A stretch of DNA of 64,000 bases from Elusimicrobiota bacterium (GTDB taxonomy: Bacteria; Elusimicrobiota; Endomicrobiia; Endomicrobiales; Endomicrobiaceae), in contig JAISQF010000007.1 of the NCBI GenBank assembly GCA_031274365.1, positions 8,081 through 72,080 of the forward strand, given 5' to 3'. Below the pieces are notes generated by a model. It was not told the DNA's origin and searched no databases. It saw only the letters and a list, made by a program, of their open reading frames with translations. This document shows positions 1,413-56,657 of the stretch, one piece after another; position 1 is the first letter of the stretch; every line of letters starts with the position of its first letter. Made by a program: the position numbers and the translations under genes.

Positions 1413-2228
1413 TTACCAAGCCGGTTGATAAGCGCCCTTAAAATCTTTCAAGATAACCGCTTTAACTTCGTCGGTATGATAAGCATCGACAATTTTCTTA
1501 TAGATGGGATTATCTTTATCTTCCGTGCGAGCGGCAATGATATTTATATAAGGATTATCCTGCCCTTCTTCTTGTTTTTCAAGCAAAAGACTGTCTCTCT
1601 CGGGATTAAGTCCGGCGTCAACGGCATGCCCGCCGTTTATAAAAGCAGCTGTAACATCGTCAAGCAAACGAGGAGTTTGAGCCGCTTCAACCTGAATGAA
1701 TTTCAGATCCAATGGATTTGAAGTTATGTCGCTGACATTTGGAAGATAGCCGCCTTTTGGATGAACTTTAATTAAACCCGCAACCTGTAAAACCAAAAGC
1801 GCTCTGCCTCCATTGACCACATCGTTTGGAATCGCAATCGTATCGCCTTTTTTAAGTTCGGATATCGATTTGATTTTTTTCGAATAAAGTCCGATAGGGG
1901 CGATAATCGTTTTTCCAATAGCTGTTATTTTATAACCCTTTGTTTTAATTTCATTATTCAAATAAGCATAATGTTGAAAAGCATTAAGATCAATTTCGCC
2001 GCTTGCGAGAGCCTGATTTGGCAAAACATAATCGCCAAATTTGACTAATTCAATTTTGATACCCTCTTTTGCGAGATTCTTTTTTATAACTTCCCACTGA
2101 GGATTATTATCGCCGACTATACCTACTTTAACGACAATTTCATCCGTCTTTTTTGCGCAAGAACTAAAAGCCGCTATTCCGGCAATACCTACCGCTAAAG
2201 CTAAAACTGCAATACTTATTTTCTTCAT
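1413..2228 (-). CDS. metQ: methionine ABC transporter substrate-binding lipoprotein (MetQ/NlpA family)
   Basis: ORF 1413-2294 trimmed to MKKISIAVLALA.. (ATG 2228-2226) preceded by GGAGGAAG SD; signal peptide with FSSC lipobox; NlpA-family sequence. Confidence 0.9.
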   Translation of the reverse strand: MKKISIAVLALAVGIAGIAAFSSCAKKTDEIVVKVGIVGDNNPQWEVIKKNLAKEGIKIELVKFGDYVLPNQALASGEIDLNAFQHYAYLNNEIKTKGYKITAIGKTIIAPIGLYSKKIKSISELKKGDTIAIPNDVVNGGRALLVLQVAGLIKVHPKGGYLPNVSDITSNPLDLKFIQVEAAQTPRLLDDVTAAFINGGHAVDAGLNPERDSLLLEKQEEGQDNPYINIIAARTEDKDNPIYKKIVDAYHTDEVKAVILKDFKGAYQPAW

Positions 2229-2325
2229 ACTTCCTCCTATTTTATTTTCCATCGCTAAATAATTAGCATTTATTAAAAAGTCCGAATTTAACAAGATTTA
2301 ACAAACTGCGGGCTGTCATATTTTC

Positions 2326-2355
2326 ATTATAATTTATCTTTTTTTAACGCGTCAA
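2326..2355 (-). promoter_or_regulatory. sigma70-like promoter for metQ
   Basis: Minus strand TTGACG (2355-2350) - 18 nt - TATAAT (2331-2326). Confidence 0.5.
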
Positions 2356-2370
2356 CATTTTGTAACATCA

Positions 2371-2762
2371 CTTAACATACTAGACTTTTTATAATAATAG
2401 GTTAAATGAACTTGACAGCATAATTTAATTATTTTGTCGTGTCTTTATTTATATAAAGTTTTTTAGCGGAGACCGAGCAGCCTGAAAGGCTGGATTTTCA
2501 TAACCGTAGGCCAGCGGCCTGCGGAAAAGCCCCCCCCACGTTTTTTCTGCCTGAAAGGCAGGACTACATAAAGGCAGCACGGCACGGGGGCGCGAGCAAG
2601 CTCTGCGCAAGGTAGAGAGAGCAGATGTTATTACAATCCACGGGTCGTTGACCCGCGGTTATGAAAATCCAGCCCTACGGGCTGTAATGCAAAATAAAGT
2701 GTCGCCCCGTGCAAAACTTCTACGACAAAAACATAAGTCTATTATCTGTTTGAGGTTTTTCA
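2371..2762 (+). repeat. modular intergenic element, architecture L arm - class A core - R arm (copy 1)
   Basis: L arm and R arm near-identical to 56281-56657 and related to 5621-6466; core homologous to 5822-6127; no conserved ORF. Confidence 0.85.
2475..2715 (+). ncRNA. candidate structured RNA, class A core (unclassified)
   Basis: Perfect 15-bp long-range helix 2492-2506/2656-2670 plus at least 5 local hairpins; G+C-rich island in AT-rich DNA; strand inferred from G.T pairs. Confidence 0.4.
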
Positions 2763-2775
2763 CATTTTTATAAAA

Positions 2776-3456
2776 CTAATGTGAGATTTTTTTAATAACA
2801 TAATCTCCAAGCGTTTGAATCGCCGTTACTATAAGAACTAAAATTACAACCGTGACTATAGTCACATCCGTTTGATAACGTTGATAACCATAACGAATTG
2901 CAAAGTCTCCAAGTCCTCCGCCGCCTATCGCGCCCGCCATAGCGGTAAGACCCACTAAACTGATAAATGTAATAGTCACTCCGCGTATAATTGACGGAAT
3001 GCTTTCCTTAAAATATACGCGAAAAATTATGCTCACGGGGCTTATGCCCATAGCCAAAGCCGCTTCTATCGTTCCTCTGTCAATTTCTGCCAAAGCCGCC
3101 TGCATCTGTCTTGTGAAAAACGGCGCCGTGCCGACTATTAAAGGCACCATTGCGCCTTTCGTTCCTATCGCCGTGCCGACGATAGCTCTGGTAACAGGTA
3201 TTAAAAGAGCAAGCAAAATTATAAAAGGAACTGAGCGGAAAAAATTTATCACTTTATCAAGAATAGTCCAAAAAACCAGATTCTCCAAAATATCGCCTTT
3301 TCTTGTTACCACAAGCAAAACTCCAAAAACAATACCTATACAAAAAGATATTATTCCGCTGATAAGCATCATATAAAGAGTTTGTCCGGTGCAAAGCAAA
3401 AGCTCGGGAATTTTGTCCATAACATTTGGAAAAAGATATTCTATAATTTTAGTCAT
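2776..3456 (-). CDS. metI: methionine ABC transporter permease
   Basis: 226-aa polytopic membrane ORF, MetI-type BPD permease; overlaps metN stop by 8 nt. Confidence 0.9.
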   Translation of the reverse strand: MTKIIEYLFPNVMDKIPELLLCTGQTLYMMLISGIISFCIGIVFGVLLVVTRKGDILENLVFWTILDKVINFFRSVPFIILLALLIPVTRAIVGTAIGTKGAMVPLIVGTAPFFTRQMQAALAEIDRGTIEAALAMGISPVSIIFRVYFKESIPSIIRGVTITFISLVGLTAMAGAIGGGGLGDFAIRYGYQRYQTDVTIVTVVILVLIVTAIQTLGDYVIKKISH

Positions 3457-4486
3457 AAGATTTTATAATCTCCACTTTAACTCCTCTTTCTCTGACATAA
3501 TCAAAAGCTTTTTTCTGATTTTCTTTTGACCCGCTTATTATAAGTATCAATCCGCCCATAGGCATATCGAGAATGATGTCTAAATCCGCAAAAATTATAT
3601 TGAGTCTTATATCAAACATTGCGGAAATTGTAGAAATCAAAGCTTCCACAACGCTGGGACCGGAATAACTAAAATGAGCGAGAGTCTCGCCGGGCTTTAA
3701 TGTCGTAACAATAGAATTTTCGGCAAGCAAATCATAGATCTTATTGAGATTTGAAGTCGTCGCTATGAAATCCTTTGTAATCTTATGTTTGGGATTGGCA
3801 AATATATTAAAAACTTCGTCCGTCTCTATTACTTCACCCGCCTCCATAACCGCAACCTCATTACATATCGATTTTATTATATTCATTTCATGAGTAACAA
3901 TAACTATCGTTAGATTGAGTTTTTTATTTAAATCTTTAAGTAATGCCAAAATTGACAAAGTAGTTTTAGGGTCAAGAGCGCTGGTGGCCTCGTCGCAAAG
4001 CAAAATTTTTGGATTTGTCGCAAGAGATCTGGCTATGCCCACTCTTTGTTTTTGTCCGCCGGAAAGCTGAGACGGATATCCGTTTATCTTGCTTTCAAGA
4101 CCAACTAATTCCAAAAGCTCGGTCACTCTATCGTCTATTTGTTCTTTTGTATATCCTCTGTGCTGCAGAGGAAAAGCGATATTTTCAGCTATCGTGCGAG
4201 AACGAAAAAGATTGAAATGTTGAAAGATCATTCCTATATCTTTTCTTTTTTCTCTGATTTGAGCGGGCGAAAATTTCATCAAATCGTCTCCGTTCACTAT
4301 TACCGAACCGGAATCCGGACGCTCCAAAAGATTTATACATCTAATAAGAGTGCTTTTTCCCGCTCCGCTCAAACCGATTATTCCAAAGATTTCTCCATCC
4401 TCAATTGTTAATGAGACATCTTTTAGCGCCCTCACCGTAGAATGTTTAGTATTAAAAGTTTTGCTGACGTCTCTTAACTCTATCAA
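3449..4486 (-). CDS. metN: methionine ABC transporter ATP-binding protein with C-terminal NIL regulatory domain
   Basis: 345 aa; Walker A GLSGAGKST, signature LSGGQKQR, Walker B ILLCDE; about 100-aa C-terminal extension typical of MetN. Confidence 0.92.
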   Translation of the reverse strand: MIELRDVSKTFNTKHSTVRALKDVSLTIEDGEIFGIIGLSGAGKSTLIRCINLLERPDSGSVIVNGDDLMKFSPAQIREKRKDIGMIFQHFNLFRSRTIAENIAFPLQHRGYTKEQIDDRVTELLELVGLESKINGYPSQLSGGQKQRVGIARSLATNPKILLCDEATSALDPKTTLSILALLKDLNKKLNLTIVIVTHEMNIIKSICNEVAVMEAGEVIETDEVFNIFANPKHKITKDFIATTSNLNKIYDLLAENSIVTTLKPGETLAHFSYSGPSVVEALISTISAMFDIRLNIIFADLDIILDMPMGGLILIISGSKENQKKAFDYVRERGVKVEIIKSYD

Positions 4487-4518
4487 TTTATTTCCTCTAT
4501 TTTTTCATATAATGAAAC

Positions 4519-5331
4519 TTAAAAAGCCGGAACCACAGCTCCATTATATTTCTTTTCTATAAATTTTTTCACATCGTTTGATTGCAAACTTTTTACCAAA
4601 GCCTTAATTGCTGGATCATTTTGTCTTGACGTTTTAACCACTATTAAATTTGCATAAGGCGAATTTTTAACGCTTTCGCGCGCAAGAACCGGATCTTTTA
4701 TTCCAAATTCCAAAATTCTATTGGTGTTTGTTATATATGCGTCAAACTGATCTCCCGAGCGAACTATCAAACCTGCGTCTAATTCCTTAAGTTGAACAGG
4801 CTTTAGGAATTTTTCAATATCGTTTTTTGTGGCTTGATAAGATTTAATACCCTTTTTTAGCGTCAAAAATCCTTCTTGCTGCAATAATAAAAGCGCTCTG
4901 TATTCATTTGACGGATCGTTTGGAATAGCGATTATAGGATTTGCGGGAAGGTCCGAAAGTTTTTTGTATTTATGAGAATACAAACCAATCGGCTCTATAT
5001 GAATAGCGCCCACAGACACTAAATCAAGTTTTCTGCCCACAGACGCGGCTTCCAAAAAAGGCAAATGTTGAAAATAATTTGCGTCATAATATCCCTCATC
5101 GGTTTGAGTATTTATCAAAGTCCATTCACTCGTTACATAAATTTGCAAATCAATCCCTTCTTTAGCAAGTTTAGGTTTTACAAATTCTAAAATTTCAGCA
5201 TGGGGAACTGCGTCTGCCGCAACTTTTAACACAACCTTTTTAGCTTGAGCCGATACATCCTGATTTCCAATAAACAAAATTCCCGCAATTGAAAATGCGG
5301 CGATTGTTAATACTGATAATATTTTTTTCAT
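4519..5331 (-). CDS. metQ: MetQ/NlpA-family substrate-binding protein (second paralog)
   Basis: 270 aa, signal peptide, NlpA-family similarity to 1413-2228 product; first gene of metQNI unit. Confidence 0.88.
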   Translation of the reverse strand: MKKILSVLTIAAFSIAGILFIGNQDVSAQAKKVVLKVAADAVPHAEILEFVKPKLAKEGIDLQIYVTSEWTLINTQTDEGYYDANYFQHLPFLEAASVGRKLDLVSVGAIHIEPIGLYSHKYKKLSDLPANPIIAIPNDPSNEYRALLLLQQEGFLTLKKGIKSYQATKNDIEKFLKPVQLKELDAGLIVRSGDQFDAYITNTNRILEFGIKDPVLARESVKNSPYANLIVVKTSRQNDPAIKALVKSLQSNDVKKFIEKKYNGAVVPAF

Positions 5332-5393
5332 TTTTTTCTCCTTTCTTAAATTATTAAATTTTTAATACATTTTCAATACTATTTCCCACTTTA

Positions 5394-5456
5394 TTAAAAT
5401 TTTTGATTAAGACAACATCGGAATCCGATTATAACTTCTTTTAATACATTTTTCAT
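5394..5456 (-). CDS. candidate 20-aa leader peptide MKNVLKEVIIGFRCCLNQKF
   Basis: Hand-found mini-ORF in the metQ2 leader, AAAGGAG SD 5 nt before ATG, tandem Cys codons; below ORF-track size cutoff. Confidence 0.3.
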   Translation of the reverse strand: MKNVLKEVIIGFRCCLNQKF

Positions 5457-5543
5457 ATTTTCTCCTTTTGTTATCATATACTACATATACTATATGATAT
5501 GCAATTATTTATATCAATCTCCAAAATTTGATATATTTCACAC

Positions 5544-5604
5544 ATAACATATAAAACATACTTGTTATATATGTTATATTAAATAATTATAAAAATTTTG
5601 TCAA
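5544..5604 (-). promoter_or_regulatory. sigma70-like promoter of metQ-metN-metI with overlapping 10-bp inverted repeat
   Basis: Minus strand TTGACA (5604-5599) - 17 nt - TAATAT (5581-5576); ATAACATATA (5544-5553) / TATATGTTAT (5568-5577) perfect IR overlapping the -10. Confidence 0.55.
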
Positions 5605-5821
5605 GTTTTTGTTAAATTTTTTAATATATTAGACTTTTTATGATAATAGGTTAAGCGAATTTTATGGCATAATTTAATGACGTGTAAAAATTCAACAATG
5701 CGCGCGGATTTTTTATATTTTTTATTTTTATTGTTTTAGCTTTTCTCTTTATAGCCTTAAAGGATAGATTTCCATAACCGTGTGCGACTATGCAAGGGAC
5801 GGATTAGTATCATATGGCGCA

Positions 5822-6127
5822 CAGCCTGAAAGGCTGGATTTTCATAACCGTAGGCCAGGCCTGCGCAAGCAAAATCACCCGTCTGCTCTCTGCCTGAAAG
5901 GCAGGACCCTCTGCCTAAAAGGTAGGCTACATAAAGGCAGCACGGCAATGGGCGCGAGCAAGCTCTGCGCGAGGTAGAGGGAGCGGATGCGACTACAGTC
6001 CACGGGTCGTTGACCCGCGGTTATGAAAATCCTGCCCTACGGGCTGCAAGGCAAAATAAAGTCCAAAACAGAAAACAAGAAAACTAAAGTAAAACAAAGC
6101 CTGAAACAAAACCAAGTGCGCCCGTGC
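5822..6127 (+). ncRNA. candidate structured RNA, class A core (copy 2, with insertions)
   Basis: Same 15-bp helix (5836-5850/6018-6032) and hairpins as copy 1; one extra hairpin and an A-rich insertion. Confidence 0.4.
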
Positions 6128-6199
6128 TAAACTTATATATCAGAGATTATAGCTTTTGTCTTGTAGTGTCTTTATTTATCAAAGTTTTTTAGCGGAGAC

Positions 6200-6427
6200 C
6201 GCATTAGAGGACGAGACTATGAGTGAAATGTTTTTTTGGATTATCATTTGACGATGTGTGAGCCGCCCTTCCTTATGTCGTAATGCGCGGGGGCGGCGAG
6301 TTTGGCAAATGCCAAAAGAATGTTTGGCGTTTGCCAAAAAAACATAAACGAATGTCCGAAGCGGGCAGAGCTAAAAAACAAAAAAATATTTTAATGATAA
6401 AGAGTAAAGGCAAGTATCGTCTCTGCA
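6200..6427 (+). ncRNA. candidate structured RNA, class B core (copy 1)
   Basis: About 90 percent identical by eye to 56381-56607; pseudoknot-compatible helices and twin TTTGGC-N4-GCCAAA hairpins. Confidence 0.4.
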
Positions 6428-6514
6428 AGATTTTTACGACAAAAACACAAGTCTATTATATAGTTGTCTGTCATTACAATTTTGATGACTTGTTGAGGGA
6501 TGCAATTTTAATAC

Positions 6515-8383
6515 TTAACCGATATGCGCCGCCGAAGTTTTTGAGCGGATATATTTTCCGCCCCAGAAAAGCAAGGCAAATAAAATCCATCCAGCTGCGG
6601 AAAGAATATAACTGCTATGAATTGCAGTTATGATTACAATGGCATAAAGCAATTGTTCAAAAGTTGTAATTTTTTGTTCGGTATATCCTTGAATTATAAT
6701 AGCGGCAGAATAACAAATTGTAAAAGAAGAAAGCCAAGTGGATAGAGTCAAGAAATCAAATCCAAAATGAAGATAATCGGAATTCAAAACAAAAGTAAAA
6801 GGCAAAGCAAATCCGGCAATTCCTAATTTTACCGCCGTAAGTCCTATTTTCATAGCATTCTCGCCGGCTATACCGGCGGCGGCATAAGAAGCTACTGCCA
6901 CAGGCGGAGTGATGGCTGAAATTGATGCAAAATATAAAAGAAATAAATGAGCGGGTAAAGGCGCAATGCCAATTTTTACCAAAGCCGGCGCAATAGCTGT
7001 GGCGCAAATAATATATGCCGCCGTCGTCGGCAAACCCATACCTAAAATAATACAAATCAGCATAGCGAGTATCAAACTTAAAAGTATGCTGTTTCCGCCA
7101 AGCTGAACGATGAAATTAGAAAACTTAAGCCCTAATCCCGTGATTGCAAACATCGCTGTTACTATTCCGGAACACGCGCATGCGGCAACAACTTGAGGCA
7201 AAGTTCGTCCCGCCATTTGAAATCCTTGTAAAAATTTTGAAATCGACAGACGATTATCTTTAGCGATAATGCCGCAAACGGTTAAAGCCAAAAGAGAATA
7301 AATCACAGACATCATCGGAGTCATTTTCAATACTAATAAAGTAAAGAGTAAAACTCCAAGCGGAACTGAAAGTTTAAAACTTCTTTTTAATTCCGTTTTT
7401 AATTGAGGAATATCTTCCGGCGGCAACCCTTTCAAATTATATTTAACAGATTCTAAATCAACCATCTTAAAAAGCGTAACATAATACATCAAAGCCGGAA
7501 GCAAAGCCGCAAGACAAACTATCGCATAAGGAACACCAGCGATATCGCTAAGCACAAAAGCAGCGGCGCCCATTATCGGCGGCATAATCTGTCCGCCTGT
7601 GGAAGCCACTGATTCGACTGCGCCGGCAAAGCGCTTTGCATAACCCATTCTTTTCATCAACGGAATTGTAAAAGATCCGGTTGACATAACGTTTGCAACA
7701 ACGCTTCCAGAAATAGTCCCGAACATACAACTTGCTAAGACTGCCATTTTAGCCGGACCGCCGCGTTTTTTTCCGGTAAAAGCTATGGCAATATTTTGAA
7801 AAATTCTATCGGCTCCCAAAACATTTAGAAATGCCGCAAATAATAGAAATAAATAAATGTTTGACGCCGAGACTGCTATCGGCGTTCCGTAAACTCCTTG
7901 ATCGCTAAAAATTGTCAATACAACGCGCATAACGCTATATCCCCGATGACCAAGCAAGCCGGGCAAATCTCCGCCAAATAATGCATAAAACACAGTGGTG
8001 AGAGAAATCAGCGGCAAAATCCAACCAATTGCGCGGCGAGCCGCTTCTAAAACGAGCAGTGCAATAATAATTCCCATAATTTCATAGAAAAAATCAGGTC
8101 TGCTGTTTTGCATAATCACTATAAAATTATCATAATTTGCAATTACCGATATGCCCACTGAAAGAGAAAGAGCGATTAAAAACCAATCTAAAACGAGCCA
8201 TTTTTTTGAACCGTTTTGAGCGCTCGGCTTGTATAAAAAAACAAATGTCAAACCGAGCATAAGATGCCAAGCGTAAAAGCGGATGCTTTCCATCGGAAAA
8301 AATGTGAATTGTCCAATATGAATAAATCCTGTCCATACTCCGAGAAGTATTGCAAAATAATTTCGAAATCTATCGTAAGTCAT
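6515..8383 (-). CDS. TRAP transporter fused permease subunit (TAXI-associated type)
   Basis: 622-aa highly hydrophobic ORF directly downstream of a TAXI-family receptor gene. Confidence 0.85.
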   Translation of the reverse strand: MTYDRFRNYFAILLGVWTGFIHIGQFTFFPMESIRFYAWHLMLGLTFVFLYKPSAQNGSKKWLVLDWFLIALSLSVGISVIANYDNFIVIMQNSRPDFFYEIMGIIIALLVLEAARRAIGWILPLISLTTVFYALFGGDLPGLLGHRGYSVMRVVLTIFSDQGVYGTPIAVSASNIYLFLLFAAFLNVLGADRIFQNIAIAFTGKKRGGPAKMAVLASCMFGTISGSVVANVMSTGSFTIPLMKRMGYAKRFAGAVESVASTGGQIMPPIMGAAAFVLSDIAGVPYAIVCLAALLPALMYYVTLFKMVDLESVKYNLKGLPPEDIPQLKTELKRSFKLSVPLGVLLFTLLVLKMTPMMSVIYSLLALTVCGIIAKDNRLSISKFLQGFQMAGRTLPQVVAACACSGIVTAMFAITGLGLKFSNFIVQLGGNSILLSLILAMLICIILGMGLPTTAAYIICATAIAPALVKIGIAPLPAHLFLLYFASISAITPPVAVASYAAAGIAGENAMKIGLTAVKLGIAGFALPFTFVLNSDYLHFGFDFLTLSTWLSSFTICYSAAIIIQGYTEQKITTFEQLLYAIVIITAIHSSYILSAAGWILFALLFWGGKYIRSKTSAAHIG

Positions 8384-55181: not shown

Positions 55182-56066
55182 TTATTTCTCCTCCGCGCTA
55201 TCTTCTATAATACTTTCTTTTAATTGATTATTATCCGCTTGCAAATTATTATTTTCATTTTCTTTCGCCGCTTGCTCGTCTTTTTCAGGCTCGGAATGTT
55301 TAACACTTTCTTCAACATTATTGTTTTGAGCATTTTCCGCGCCGGCTTCTGCTCCATTTTCTTTCTCATCATCCTGCTTTTCAATTACCCCTTTGCCTTC
55401 TAAAACGGCGTCGGCAATCGTTGAACAAAAAAGTTTTACCGCTCTAATAGCGTCATCATTTCCGGGAATTGGATAATCGACTAAATCCGGATCGCAATTC
55501 GTATCGCATACCGCGACGATGGGGATATTTAATTTTCTCGCTTCCGATACGGCCGTAGCCTCCTCATGAGGATCGATTACAAACATAAGTCCCGGAAGTT
55601 TATTCATATTTTTAAGACCTTCCAAAGATTTTTCAAGACGGACTCTTTCTTTCTCTATTCTTGATTGTTCTTTTTTTGAAAGGAAATCAAAAGTCCCCTC
55701 AGTTTTCATTTTTTCAATTTCTTTATAGCGCTGAATTGATTTTTTTAGAGTTTCAAAATTTGTAAGAGTGCCGCCCAGCCATCTTTCGCATACAAAAAAT
55801 GCACCGCAACGCAAAGCTTCCTCTTTAATTGGAATTTGAGCTTGCTTTTTTGTCCCGACAAAAATAACTTCTTTTCCCTCGGAAACATAATCTCTCACAA
55901 CTTTGTAGTTTTTCTTAAGTTCTTTTAAGGTTTTCTGCAGATCAATGATATGTATTTTATTTCTTGTTCCAAAAATATATCTTGCCATTTTCGGATTCCA
56001 TCTTCTCGTCTGATGTCCAAAATGAACACCGGCTTCCAGCAAAGCTTTCATAGTAATTGTTGCCAT
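55182..56066 (-). CDS. rpsB: 30S ribosomal protein S2 with acidic C-terminal extension
   Basis: 294 aa; ..[19 protein letters not shown]..; about 60-aa Glu/Asn/Asp-rich tail. Confidence 0.95.
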
Positions 56067-56200
56067 TTACCTCTCCTTTTAGTTTTTTCTTTTAGGCTGA
56101 TTTATAGCCTTTAGACCTCCGCGGTTTTCAATATCCACAACCCCTTAATTTAATTTTCGGGGACATATGGCTAATCCAACCGCGTGCGTATTTTTCTATA
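56067..56200 (-). promoter_or_regulatory. structured rpsB 5' leader (possible S2 autoregulatory element)
   Basis: Minus-strand helices: AACCGCG/CGCGGTT (56178-56184 / 56120-56126) enclosing GGGG/CCCC (about 56158-56161 / 56141-56144), then AGGCT-N7-AGCCT (56094-56110) next to the SD. Confidence 0.35.
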
Positions 56201-56280
56201 TTTAACAACAACGTTAAGTATATCAAAACTTAAATCATTATACCTATTTAATCTATTTTTGCAAAGATATTGCTAAATCT

Positions 56281-56657
56281 CTTAACATATTAGACTTTTT
56301 GGATGAGAGGTTTAATAAATTAATAGCATAATTTAATTATTTTATCGTGTCTTTATTTATCAAAGTTTTTTAGCGGAGACTGCCTTAGAGGACGCGTCTA
56401 TAAGTGAAATGTTTTTTTGGATTATCATTTGACGATGTGTGAGCCGCTCTTCCTTATGTCGTAATGCGCAGGGGCGGCGAGTTTGGCAAATGCCAAAAAA
56501 ATGTTTGGCCTTTGCCAAAAAAACATAAACGAATGTCCTAAGCGGTCGGAGCTAAAAAATAAAAAAATATTATAACAATAAAGAACAAAAGCAAGTGTCG
56601 TACTTGCAGGACTTCTACAACAAAAACATAAGTCTATTATCTGTTTGAGGTTTTTCA
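56281..56657 (+). repeat. modular intergenic element, architecture L arm - class B core - R arm (copy 3)
   Basis: Arms near-identical to 2371-2762; core about 90 percent identical by eye to 6200-6427. Confidence 0.85.
56381..56607 (+). ncRNA. candidate structured RNA, class B core (copy 2)
   Basis: Same pseudoknot-compatible helices and twin hairpins as 6200-6427; helix substitutions keep pairing only on the plus strand. Confidence 0.4.

What the first reader, a model, noticed from the sequence alone, without database searches (positions are those of the whole stretch)
2475..2715. Class A core: ornate fold closed by a perfect 15-bp long-range helix, with partly compensatory changes between copies
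GGATTTTCATAACCG (2492-2506) is the exact reverse complement of CGGTTATGAAAATCC (2656-2670). The same pair is kept in copy 2 (5836-5850 / 6018-6032). The helix is flanked directly by hairpins CAGCC-TGAAA-GGCTG (2478-2492) and CAGCCC-TAC-GGGCTG (2670-2684). It encloses CTGCC-TGAAA-GGCAG (2547-2561), a bulged GCGCGAGC..GCTCTGCGC hairpin, and CGGGTC-GTT-GACCCG (2641-2655). An outer helix GCACGGGG (2582-2589) / CCCCGTGC (2705-2712) in copy 1 is replaced in copy 2 by GGGCGC (5950-5955) / GCGCCC (6118-6123) plus GCAC (5940-5943) / GTGC (6124-6127). Pairing is therefore kept while the sequence differs. Copy 2 has an extra hairpin CTGCC-TAAAA-GGTAG (5911-5925) with a G-T pair, acceptable as G.U only if the plus strand is the RNA. 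Repeated CNGCC-TGAAA-GGCNG hairpins could also be protein-binding modules.
Basis: seen in the sequence. Interest (0 to 1): 0.65.

Follow-up and report, generated by a model that had tools for sequence, protein, structure and literature searches.

The report
Gene-less transposon-end hairpin doublet
The "ornate RNA fold" is most likely an inverted pair of a roughly 90-base three-hairpin DNA module that, in related bacteria, flanks small IS200-like transposase genes, so it looks like a miniature mobile-DNA relic and not a dedicated structured RNA gene.

Summary
The sequence facts hold. The inverted repeat is real (15 bp, and 19 bp perfect in copy 1). It is kept in copy 2 and is far beyond chance. 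The claimed compensatory change is not real.

Each Class A copy is two inverted copies of one ~90-nt module, which I call E. E consists of hairpin NNGCC-TGAAA-GGCNN, linker GATTTTCATAA, hairpin CCGYAGG..CCTRCGG, a ~20-nt spacer, and hairpin CTGCC-TGAAA-GGCAG. The "15-bp helix" is the conserved linker facing its own inverted copy.

E modules are multi-copy in termite-gut and wastewater Bacteroidota. They occur as inverted doublets, alternating arrays and mosaics. There is no Rfam match and no strand-specific G.U bias.

In 12 of 120 loci retrieved by DNA pattern, E-like modules directly flank an IS200-like Y1 transposase gene, always in the order E(+), gene, E(-). A covariance model built from the window-type modules also finds full-length modules next to such genes in loci fetched independently by protein.

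Class A has the same layout without the gene, which makes it a REPIN-like or TIR-dimer-like derivative. The window comes from an Elusimicrobiota genome and has no Y1 gene.

A domesticated RNA role is not excluded, because the window has no RNA-seq data.

The parts
2476..2566 (+). Copy 1, left arm: module E in sense orientation (hp1, linker, hp2, spacer, hp3)
   Evidence: CM R1 scores 85 bits, E 3e-18, full length. nhmmer gives E 7e-20.
2478..2492 (+). hp1, CAGCC-TGAAA-GGCTG
   Evidence: Read. The stem covaries across the family (TTGCC/GGCAA, GGCTT/AAGCC, AGCCC/GGGCT).
2493..2503 (+). Linker GATTTTCATAA. The TTCATAA part is invariant in the family.
2504..2524 (+). hp2, CCGTAGGCC-AGC-GGCCTGCGG (one T.G pair). 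It is the REP-like central hairpin, and its CCG competes with the long helix.
   Evidence: Compensatory variants seen include CCGCAGG/CCTGCGG, CCGTAGG/CCTACGG and CCTCAG/CTGAGG.
2547..2561 (+). hp3, CTGCC-TGAAA-GGCAG. In autonomous relatives this is the hairpin next to the gene.
2567..2597 (.). Short centre between the arms. In autonomous relatives the Y1 transposase gene sits at this position.
2598..2686 (-). Copy 1, right arm: module E in inverted orientation. hp3' is degenerate, hp2' is 2638-2658, linker' is 2659-2669 and hp1' is 2670-2684.
   Evidence: CM R1 scores 45.5 bits, E 8e-9, and this arm was not in the seed alignment.
5750..5815 (+). Degenerate third E module upstream of copy 2 (TAGCC-TTAAA-GGATA GATTTCCATAACCG...)
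   Evidence: 76% identity to 2478-2514. CM R1 scores 14.7 bits, E 0.16.
5820..5909 (+). Copy 2, left arm: module E in sense orientation
   Evidence: CM R1 scores 72 bits, E 4e-15.
5911..5925 (+). Tandem duplicate of hp3 (CTGCC-TAAAA-GGTAG)
   Evidence: 20-nt insertion relative to copy 1.
5972..6048 (-). Copy 2, right arm: module E in inverted orientation
   Evidence: CM R1 scores 41.3 bits, E 8e-8, and this arm was not in the seed alignment.
2344..2473 (+). Flanking repeat modules shared with the Class B loci: upstream box TTAACATAYTAGACTTTTT and leader AAAGTTTTTTAGCGGAGAC. They are not part of E but belong to the same intergenic mosaic.
   Evidence: The modules occur on other contigs with other flanks in runs X1 and X2.
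2710..2762 (+). Tail repeat module shared with Class B (…ACAAAAACAYAAGTCTATTAT…)

Best explanation
Each Class A core is a gene-less inverted doublet of a ~90-nt three-hairpin module, E. In related bacteria, E forms the inverted ends of small elements that encode an IS200-like Y1 (HUH) transposase of subclass 1.2. The layout there is E(+), gene, E(-). Class A is the same layout with about 30 nt (copy 1) or about 60 nt (copy 2) where the gene would be. That makes it a miniature, non-autonomous derivative, comparable to a REPIN or a TIR dimer.

The "15-bp helix" is the module's conserved single-stranded linker (GA)TTTTCATAA(CCG) facing its own inverted copy. It is a consequence of the inverted-repeat design, not a helix selected in an RNA.

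Shown:
- module identity and its multi-copy, mosaic distribution;
- hairpin covariation;
- physical linkage of E-like modules to Y1 genes with a fixed orientation rule;
- absence of an RNA strand signature.

Inferred:
- The hairpins, especially hp2 with its 5' linker, are bound on single-stranded DNA by the Y1 enzyme, which moves or copies the doublets in trans. This is by analogy with IS608 TnpA and the RAYT/REP system.
- The two copies in this Elusimicrobiota genome arrived by such mobility or by horizontal transfer from co-resident Bacteroidota.
- Any transcript that crosses them, on either strand, will fold into the branched hairpin. This may incidentally affect termination or stability of met-operon mRNA.
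For: Module in the window:
- The CM and HMM find exactly four E modules plus one degenerate one, as two convergent pairs.

Family behaviour:
- There are 70 E hits in roughly 35 metagenome loci.
- Convergent doublets occur in termite-gut Bacteroidales (L024, L068, L101; the DnaB of L024 is closest to Dysgonomonadaceae).
- Divergent doublets, alternating arrays and mosaics with other repeats occur in wastewater Bacteroidota (GldK/L/M in L093).
- About 200 different contigs per sludge run carry the module.

Structure signals:
- Stems covary between subfamilies, while the linker TTCATAA is invariant.
- G.T against A.C is 11:12.

Link to Y1 genes:
- 12 of 120 pattern-derived loci have a Y1_Tnp ORF within about 200 nt of the modules, always E(+), gene, E(-).
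- L048 has ~85-nt near-identical inverted ends around a 150-aa ORF.
- Pfam PF01797 matches at E 1e-22 to 1e-25, and the NCBIfam IS200 model scores above its cut-off.
- The closest solved structure is IS608 TnpA.
- The proteins carry the DH[IV]H, WQ and Y---Q--HH signatures of subclass 1.2 (PMC6006769).

Independent test:
- CM R1 was built only from window, termite and wastewater modules.
- It hits full length (E 2.5e-6 to 4e-4) just upstream of Y1 genes in Bacteroidales loci fetched by protein identity.

Other support:
- In termite doublets the two gene-proximal hairpins are separated by only 13-26 nt, as expected after loss of the gene.
- In runs X1 and X2 the E(+) arm and the flanking modules lie on several contigs with different flanks, with sharp boundaries at 2478 and 2566.
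- The closest syntenic relative lacks the element.
- The element is a 55% GC island in 35% GC DNA.
- There is no Rfam, plasmid or phage match.
Against: - There is no Y1 gene in the 64-kb window.
- I found no autonomous element whose ends carry exactly the window subtype (TTTTCATAACCG). The link rests on shared architecture and CM scores.
- I saw no target-site duplication and no empty-site/filled-site pair, so mobility is inferred.
- The copy number in this genome is unknown. Only two doublets are seen, 3.3 kb apart, both beside methionine-transporter genes.
- Copy 1 sits behind the same promoter-like leader and in front of the same tail as the Class B elements. This would also fit an expressed RNA cassette.
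- Window copies fold slightly better on the plus strand, by 2.6-4.7 kcal/mol.
- The published description of subclass 1.2 says these genes generally lack typical terminal structures (PMC6006769), so the association proposed here still needs experimental proof.
Confidence: 0.75

Rival explanations
1. Class A is a true small or medium-sized non-coding RNA gene, transcribed from the plus strand from the shared leader to the shared tail. Its branched fold, possibly derived from a repeat doublet, has been domesticated, for example as a protein sponge or a regulator linked to methionine transport.
For: - The leader and tail are shared with Class B at three loci.
- A stem plus T-run lies at 2759-2795, downstream of the tail on the plus strand (seen; not listed by the scan).
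- The fold z-score is -6.1, and the plus strand is slightly favoured in both window copies.
- Related repeats are present in metatranscriptome assemblies.
- Both copies sit beside met transporter genes.
Against: - There is no sigma-70-like promoter at the leader.
- The leader, E arm and tail occur separately with other flanks in related genomes.
- Copy 2 lacks the leader.
- There is no Rfam family and no covariation beyond that of the repeat family, and no G.U bias.
- Termite homologs favour the opposite strand.
- No RNA data exist for this organism.
Confidence: 0.1
2. The element acts in cis on the minus strand, as part of the metQ2-metN-metI / metQ mRNAs. It would work as a REP-like 3'-end stabiliser, an intercistronic terminator or attenuator, or a riboswitch-like leader.
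For: - All neighbouring genes are on the minus strand, and copy 1 lies between metI and metQ.
- The minus strand also folds strongly, z = -5.0.
- Termite and wastewater homologs fold better on the strand equivalent to the window's minus strand.
- REP dimers are known to act this way (PMC3733652).
Against: - Predicted minus-strand promoters for metQ and metQ2 lie downstream of the elements (2355 to 2326 and 5615 to 5586). Copy 2 would therefore not be in the metQ2 leader.
- Homologs sit next to unrelated genes.
- No SAM or T-box-like match was found.
- The closest relative has the met genes without the element.
- This effect would be a by-product of the repeat and compatible with the main explanation. 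It would not be an alternative origin.
Confidence: 0.1
3. Assembly artefact: repeat-rich reads from Bacteroidota were mis-joined into an Elusimicrobiota contig.
For: - The GC island is 55% against 35% background.
- The closest E relatives are in Bacteroidales.
- The contig of relative L003 ends just upstream of its met operon, at the position that corresponds to copy 2 in the window.
Against: - There are two copies, each embedded between Elusimicrobiota-like genes.
- Both carry lineage-specific flanking modules that recur at 56.3 kb in the same window.
- The window arms form their own subtype, distinct from every Bacteroidota copy seen.
Confidence: 0.03

Closest known systems
REP / REPIN doublets and their RAYT (TnpA-REP) transposases (REPtrons), e.g. 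in E. coli and Pseudomonas
   Same: - Short extragenic hairpins with a conserved 5' flanking motif.
- Mostly found as inverted heterodimers (head-head or tail-tail), clusters and mosaics.
- Stems covary.
- A Y1 HUH gene is flanked by the repeats in inverted orientation.
- Gene-less doublets outnumber the gene.
   Different: - There is no unpaired GTAG or CGTC tag. The linker ends in ATAA or ATAG, and G(T/C)AG lies inside the stem.
- The unit is a three-hairpin ~90-nt module, not one 20-40-nt hairpin.
- The associated protein scores as IS200-type, not RAYT (NCBIfam), and carries subclass 1.2 signatures.
- The hosts are Bacteroidota and Elusimicrobiota.
TIRtrons / TIRYT (Di Nocera et al. 2013, PMC3733652)
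   Same: - A tyrosine-transposase gene is flanked by long terminal inverted repeats.
- The repeats also exist as moderately abundant gene-less dimers and clusters.
- Some of those TIRs are self-complementary.
   Different: - Described TIRYTs fall mostly in class 2.1, with HTH domains and a GGGGWSAS motif in the TIR (PMC6006769).
- Neither feature is present here.
IS200/IS605 family (IS608, ISDra2)
   Same: - The closest solved relative of the associated protein is IS608 TnpA.
- That enzyme recognises subterminal hairpins on single-stranded DNA, and the sequence 5' of the hairpin foot guides cleavage.
   Different: - IS608 ends are not inverted repeats, because both hairpins are read on the same strand.
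- The window copies carry no gene.
TnpA-Y1 subclass 1.2 (Quentin et al. 2018, PMC6006769)
   Same: - The proteins next to E modules are about 150 aa and carry DH[IV]H, WQ and Y---Q--HH.
- They occur in Bacteroidetes.
   Different: - That subclass was described as low-copy and generally lacking typical terminal secondary structures.
- Here, members are flanked by three-hairpin modules that have proliferated.
Transcribed palindromic repeats such as ERIC/IRU, Correia (NEMIS) and BIMEs
   Same: - Intergenic, imperfectly palindromic and co-transcribed with neighbouring genes.
- They can alter mRNA stability or termination.
- BIMEs share the mosaic organisation.
   Different: - There is no sequence relation.
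- No effect on transcripts has been tested here.

Membership tests
REP/REPIN-RAYT system | Imperfect palindromic hairpin units in extragenic DNA, with stems kept by complementary changes | tested here: met
   hp1, hp2 and hp3 are 93-100% Watson-Crick, and several stem types are seen per position. RNAalifold finds 14 pairs with changes on both sides.
REP/REPIN-RAYT system | Conserved unpaired GTAG (or CGTC) tetranucleotide at one end of the hairpin | tested here: not met
   The 5' flank is ...TTCATAA, or ATAG/ACAG in distant members. G(T/C)AG lies inside the hp2 stem and is paired.
REP/REPIN-RAYT system | Units mostly in inverted dimers or clusters, with many copies per genome | tested here: inconclusive
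   Met in Bacteroidota relatives. For this genome only 64 kb is available, which holds two doublets plus one degenerate unit. Runs X1 and X2 show several further contexts.
REP/REPIN-RAYT system | A cognate Y1 transposase gene flanked by the repeats in inverted orientation | tested here: inconclusive
   Met for related modules, in 12 loci with the order E(+), gene, E(-), and by CM hits next to Y1 genes. I did not find it for the exact window subtype, and the window has no Y1 gene.
REP/REPIN-RAYT system | The associated protein belongs to the RAYT (class 2 TnpA-REP) clade | tested here: not met
   The NCBIfam REP_Tyr_transpos model scores 21-35 bits against a cut-off of 80, while the IS200 equivalog scores 63-79 bits against a cut-off of 55. 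The Y---Q--HH signature belongs to subclass 1.2 (PMC6006769).
IS200/IS605 insertion sequence | The element encodes a Y1 HUH transposase | tested here: not met
   No ORF with a Y1 match lies in or near the window copies. The centre is only 31 nt in copy 1.
IS200/IS605 insertion sequence | Subterminal hairpins at both ends on the same strand, with no terminal inverted repeats | tested here: not met
   The ends are inverted copies of one module.
MITE (cut-and-paste miniature element) | Terminal inverted repeats | tested here: met
   The arms are 48 nt and 79% complementary. Both arms match the E model.
MITE (cut-and-paste miniature element) | Target-site duplication, and empty sites in relatives | tested here: inconclusive
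   No direct repeat is visible at 2477/2685 or 5821/6047. The syntenic relative L003 lacks the element, but its gene order also differs.
Curated structured RNA families (Rfam 15, including OLE, GOLLD, ROOL, HEARO, SAM and T-box) | A covariance-model match at or near the gathering score | tested here: not met
   No match in the window at gathering score. Nothing relevant at E up to 10 in 2200-6600. No match in 16 homologous loci or in L037.
Functional structured RNA in general | Strand-specific signature (G.U tolerated, A.C avoided) and a consistently better-folding strand | tested here: not met
   G.T against A.C is 11:12 in hp2. The window copies favour the plus strand by 3-5 kcal/mol, whereas termite homologs favour the opposite orientation.
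Functional structured RNA in general | A discrete transcript from a defined strand | not testable with these tools
   No RNA run holds the window sequence. Relatives appear in sludge metatranscriptome contigs, but without strand information.

The most novel reading that the evidence does not exclude
The doublet has been exapted. Together with Class B, it would form a family of repeat-derived RNAs in Endomicrobia-like bacteria, each driven by the same leader and ended by the same tail. Class A would then be a plus-strand RNA whose branched fold is built from transposon-end hairpins. A less exotic but more likely novelty also stands: E would be the previously unrecognised cognate end or REP-like module of the "orphan" Y1 transposase subclass 1.2, with REPIN-like proliferation in Bacteroidota and spill-over into Elusimicrobiota.
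Probability: 0.12. Interest if true: 0.65.

Novelty: new variant of a known kind. Interest (0 to 1): 0.42.

Why it matters
For the scan, a strong-looking "ornate RNA" candidate (a perfect 15-19 bp helix, five hairpins, z = -6) turns out to be explained by mobile-DNA symmetry. Candidates of this shape should be checked against repeat families before they are called RNAs.

For mobile-DNA biology, subclass 1.2 Y1 transposases were described as lacking recognisable end structures. Here they are flanked by a defined three-hairpin module. Gene-less doublets of that module are abundant in anaerobic Bacteroidota and occur in a different phylum within the termite-gut habitat. This gives a concrete DNA substrate to test with the enzyme, and a marker of cross-phylum exchange.

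Tried and rejected
- **Known RNA families.** Rfam at gathering and permissive thresholds, on the window and on homologs, found nothing.
- **Methionine riboswitch or T-box leader on the minus strand.** There was no match. The predicted met promoters lie downstream of the elements, and homologs sit beside unrelated genes.
- **CsrA-type sponge.** By eye, GGA motifs are not enriched (about 4 in 240 nt, as expected).
- **Integron attC or dif-like site.** By eye, the core motifs do not fit.
- **Shared leader as a search key.** Its 19-mer gave only two hits in genome contigs, and both look like chance matches. It gave none in viral contigs.
- **Plasmids and phages.** No match.
- **Literature search by sequence strings.** It returned only primer coincidences.
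- **Recurrent neighbour genes around E-positive loci.** I first missed the transposase here. Only spurious ORFs through the repeat recurred, because the gene-bearing loci have more divergent modules. A tblastn with an IS200 TnpA sequence written from memory then gave the lead, which Pfam and NCBIfam confirmed.
- **The leader-to-tail cassette as a large palindrome or MITE with its own terminal repeats.** Local alignments scored no better than shuffles.
- **RNA-seq for the window organism.** None is indexed.
- **An autonomous copy with the exact window-type ends.** I did not find one among the 19 Bacteroidales Y1 loci fetched.

Full report
**Observation.** GGATTTTCATAACCG (2492-2506) and CGGTTATGAAAATCC (2656-2670) are exact reverse complements. 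In copy 1 the perfect repeat actually runs 19 bp (2488-2506 / 2656-2674), and in copy 2 it runs 15 bp (5836-5850 / 6018-6032). These are the only perfect inverted repeats of 15 bp or more with arms within 300 nt in the window, whereas first-order Markov simulations of the window give 0.125 on average. The repeat finder shows that the complementarity extends to 48-nt arms at 79% (2478-2525 / 2637-2684). Both strands fold far better than shuffles: z = -6.1 for plus and -5.0 for minus. The element is a 55% GC island in 35% GC DNA.

- A further hairpin, CCGTAGGCC-AGC-GGCCTGCGG (2504-2524), and its partner (2638-2658) compete for the CCG/CGG ends of the "15-bp" helix.
- The "outer helix kept by compensation" is not a compensation. 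Both copies share the identical GCACGG/CCGTGC core, copy 1 only adds GG/CC, and no position changes on both sides.

**Context.** All neighbouring genes are on the minus strand:
- aminotransferase class IV, 356-1231;
- MetQ, 1413-2228;
- MetI, 2776-3456;
- MetN, 3449-4486;
- a second MetQ, 4519-5331;
- a TRAP DctM permease, 6515-8383.

The best MetQ relatives are from Elusimicrobiota/Endomicrobium MAGs. The closest one (86% identity, L003) has the met genes without any such element.

Copy 1 is preceded by a leader (AAAGTTTTTTAGCGGAGAC) and followed by a tail (ACAAAAACAYAAGTCTATTAT). These also bracket an unrelated core, "Class B", at 6156-6455 and 56337-56636. Copy 2 lacks the leader and sits directly upstream of a Class B unit.

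**Not a known RNA.** Rfam 15 gives nothing at gathering thresholds in the window (only tRNA-Asn at 59.1 kb). It gives nothing relevant at E up to 10 in 2200-6600, and nothing in homologous loci.

**Homologs.** One metagenome scan for two GCCTGAAAGGC hairpins 40-70 nt apart returned 120 loci. BLAST and direct reading showed true relatives.

From these I defined a ~90-nt module, E, with five parts:
- hp1, NNGCC-TGAAA-GGCNN;
- a linker ending in TTCATAA;
- hp2, CCGYAGG...CCTRCGG;
- a ~20-nt spacer;
- hp3, CTGCC-TGAAA-GGCAG.

An HMM of E finds 70 copies in about 35 loci. Class A is E(+) followed by E(-), a convergent pair. The same arrangement occurs in termite-gut contigs (L024, L068, L101, L049, L022). 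The DnaB of L024 is closest to Dysgonomonadaceae, that is, Bacteroidales.

In wastewater and digester contigs that carry GldK/L/M (Bacteroidota), the two arms are in the opposite, divergent order. They are repeated in alternating arrays and embedded in mosaics of other small repeats. About 200 different contigs per sludge metatranscriptome run carry the unit (contigs give no strand information). The family has no match in plasmid or phage collections.

**RNA or DNA?**
- *Covariation.* Hairpin stems covary between subfamilies, for example CCGCAGG/CCTGCGG, CCGTAGG/CCTACGG and CCTCAG/CTGAGG. The linker core TTCATAA is invariant in sequence, so the central 7 bp of the long helix carry no covariation information. 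RNAalifold on seven convergent units recovers hp1, a 10-bp long helix, a local hp2, and hp3 paired with its inverted copy, but the covariation term is about 0.
- *Strand signature.* In module sense, the non-Watson-Crick pairs in hp2 are G.T 11 against A.C 12. Each arm of a unit lies on a different strand, so there is no sign that one transcribed strand is protected. The better-folding strand also differs: the window copies favour plus by 3-5 kcal/mol, and termite homologs favour the opposite orientation.

These are the properties of a palindromic DNA repeat. REP dimers in the literature show the same heterodimer, head-head/tail-tail and cluster behaviour (PMC3733652).

**The transposase link.** A tblastn with an IS200 TnpA sequence recalled from memory (a lead only) hit six pattern-derived loci. 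An HMM built from those ORFs found 12 loci with such a gene.

The proteins have these properties:
- They are about 150 aa and match Pfam Y1_Tnp at E 1e-22 to 1e-25.
- They pass the NCBIfam IS200/IS605 equivalog cut-off but not the RAYT model.
- Their nearest solved relative is IS608 TnpA.
- They carry DH[IV]H, WQ and Y---Q--HH. [quoted passage not shown]

In every one of the 12 loci the modules abut the gene in the order E(+), gene, E(-). L048 shows ~85-nt near-identical inverted ends around ORF 2035-2487.

I ran an independent test of this link:
1. I built covariance model R1 only from window, termite and wastewater modules.
2. I searched 19 Bacteroidales loci that had been fetched by identity to Y1 proteins, not by DNA pattern.
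3. R1 gave full-length hits (E 2.5e-6 to 4e-4) in alternating orientation just upstream of the gene, and the nearest hit was in E(+) orientation.

In the termite doublets only 13-26 nt separate the two gene-proximal hairpins, as expected for an internal deletion of the gene.

In the window, R1 with filters off finds only these modules:
- 2476-2566 (+);
- 2598-2686 (-);
- 5820-5909 (+);
- 5972-6048 (-);
- a weak, degenerate hit at 5750-5815 (+).

The two minus arms were not in the seed alignment. No Y1 ORF is present in the window.

**Related genomes.** Two small DNA runs hold pieces of the copy 1 locus. The upstream module (2344-2449), the E(+) arm (2478-2576) and the tail (2710-2762) each lie on several contigs with different flanks, and the boundaries at 2478, 2566, 2710 and 2762 are sharp. 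The locus is therefore a mosaic of separately repeated modules. This weakens the reading of leader, core and tail as one transcription unit.

**Conclusion and mechanism.** Class A is best explained as a gene-less inverted doublet of the end module of subclass-1.2 Y1 transposon-like elements.

By analogy with IS608 TnpA and RAYT/REP (established knowledge; an inference for this family), the enzyme would recognise hp2 and its 5' linker on single-stranded DNA and move or copy doublets in trans. The long helix then follows from two inverted copies of a sequence-constrained linker.

Heterodimeric arms, meaning different hp2 and hp1 sequences in the two arms, may protect the element from the cleavage that perfect palindromes suffer. 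That idea comes from PMC3733652 and was not tested here.

Because the element will fold in any transcript, a side effect on met-operon mRNA or a domesticated plus-strand RNA remains possible. Neither could be tested, since no RNA data exist for this organism.

**Limits.**
- I did not find an autonomous element with exactly the window-type ends.
- I saw no target duplication and no empty/filled site pair.
- The copy number in this genome is unknown.
- The metagenome hits were ascertained with the TGAAA hairpin pattern, so conservation of that loop is partly built in. The protein-fetched loci and the non-seed arms are free of this bias.

Noticed in passing
window 6156-6455 and 56337-56636 (+): "Class B" is a second ~300-nt non-coding repeat (89% identity between copies). 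It shares the leader and tail with Class A copy 1 but has an unrelated core containing paired hairpins (TTTGGCAAATGCCAAA / TTTGGCGTTTGCCAAA). Its only Rfam hit is a chance-level match to gyrA RNA (E 1.4).
   Followed up: partly
window 2344-2449, 5596-5678, 56257-56340: A conserved upstream module (TTAACATAYTAGACTTTTT...GCATAATTTAAT) precedes all three repeat loci. In run X2 it reaches a contig depth of about 47,000, against 50-300 for other pieces, so it is highly repeated or lies on a high-copy replicon in a related organism. Its left edge overlaps strong minus-strand promoter-like sites (TTGACG-18-TATAAT at 2355 to 2326, and TTAACA-18-TATAAT at 5615 to 5586).
   Followed up: partly
L004 3256-3584 (Endomicrobium sp. 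MAG, between metI and metQ): A different GC-rich, hairpin-rich intergenic insert sits at the position syntenic with Class A copy 1. It is unrelated in sequence to E. This suggests that the metI-metQ spacer is a hotspot for structured inserts in this lineage.
   Followed up: no
L069 10800-11300: A head-to-tail tandem array (period about 82 nt, at least 6 copies) of a reduced E-like unit, TTGCC-TGAAA-GGCAA followed by CCCAGGGC-ATC-GCCCTGGG. This is a third arrangement of the module.
   Followed up: no
L093 1000-4100: A 3-kb intergenic stretch in a Bacteroidota contig is made almost entirely of interleaved small repeats: E doublets, GTCCCCTTAAGATAAGGGGAC hairpins, CCGCCGAAGGCGG hairpins and AT-rich modules. 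One E arm is cut exactly after TTCATAA (position 1803).
   Followed up: partly
L130 1187-1495, L138 1011-1496, L140 705-1496: Public gene calls of 102-263 aa with no Pfam hit lie directly upstream of the Y1 genes. They run through the E-module arrays and are probably spurious ORFs.
   Followed up: no
L127-L129 (Odoribacter sp. genomes), around 1460-1990: Here the subclass-1.2 Y1 gene is flanked only by a single inverted pair of GGGC-TGAAA-GCCT hairpins, with no full E modules. This may be a minimal form of the ends.
   Followed up: no
window 56067-56260: A GC-richer structured stretch lies upstream of the rpsB-like ORF (55182-56066, minus strand; identified by eye only). It could be a ribosomal-protein leader. 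Rfam does not match it.
   Followed up: no
window 2759-2795: A stem-loop, TCACATT...AATGTGA, followed by a T-run overlaps the stop codon of metI. It is a possible bidirectional terminator shared by the tail module and metI.
   Followed up: no
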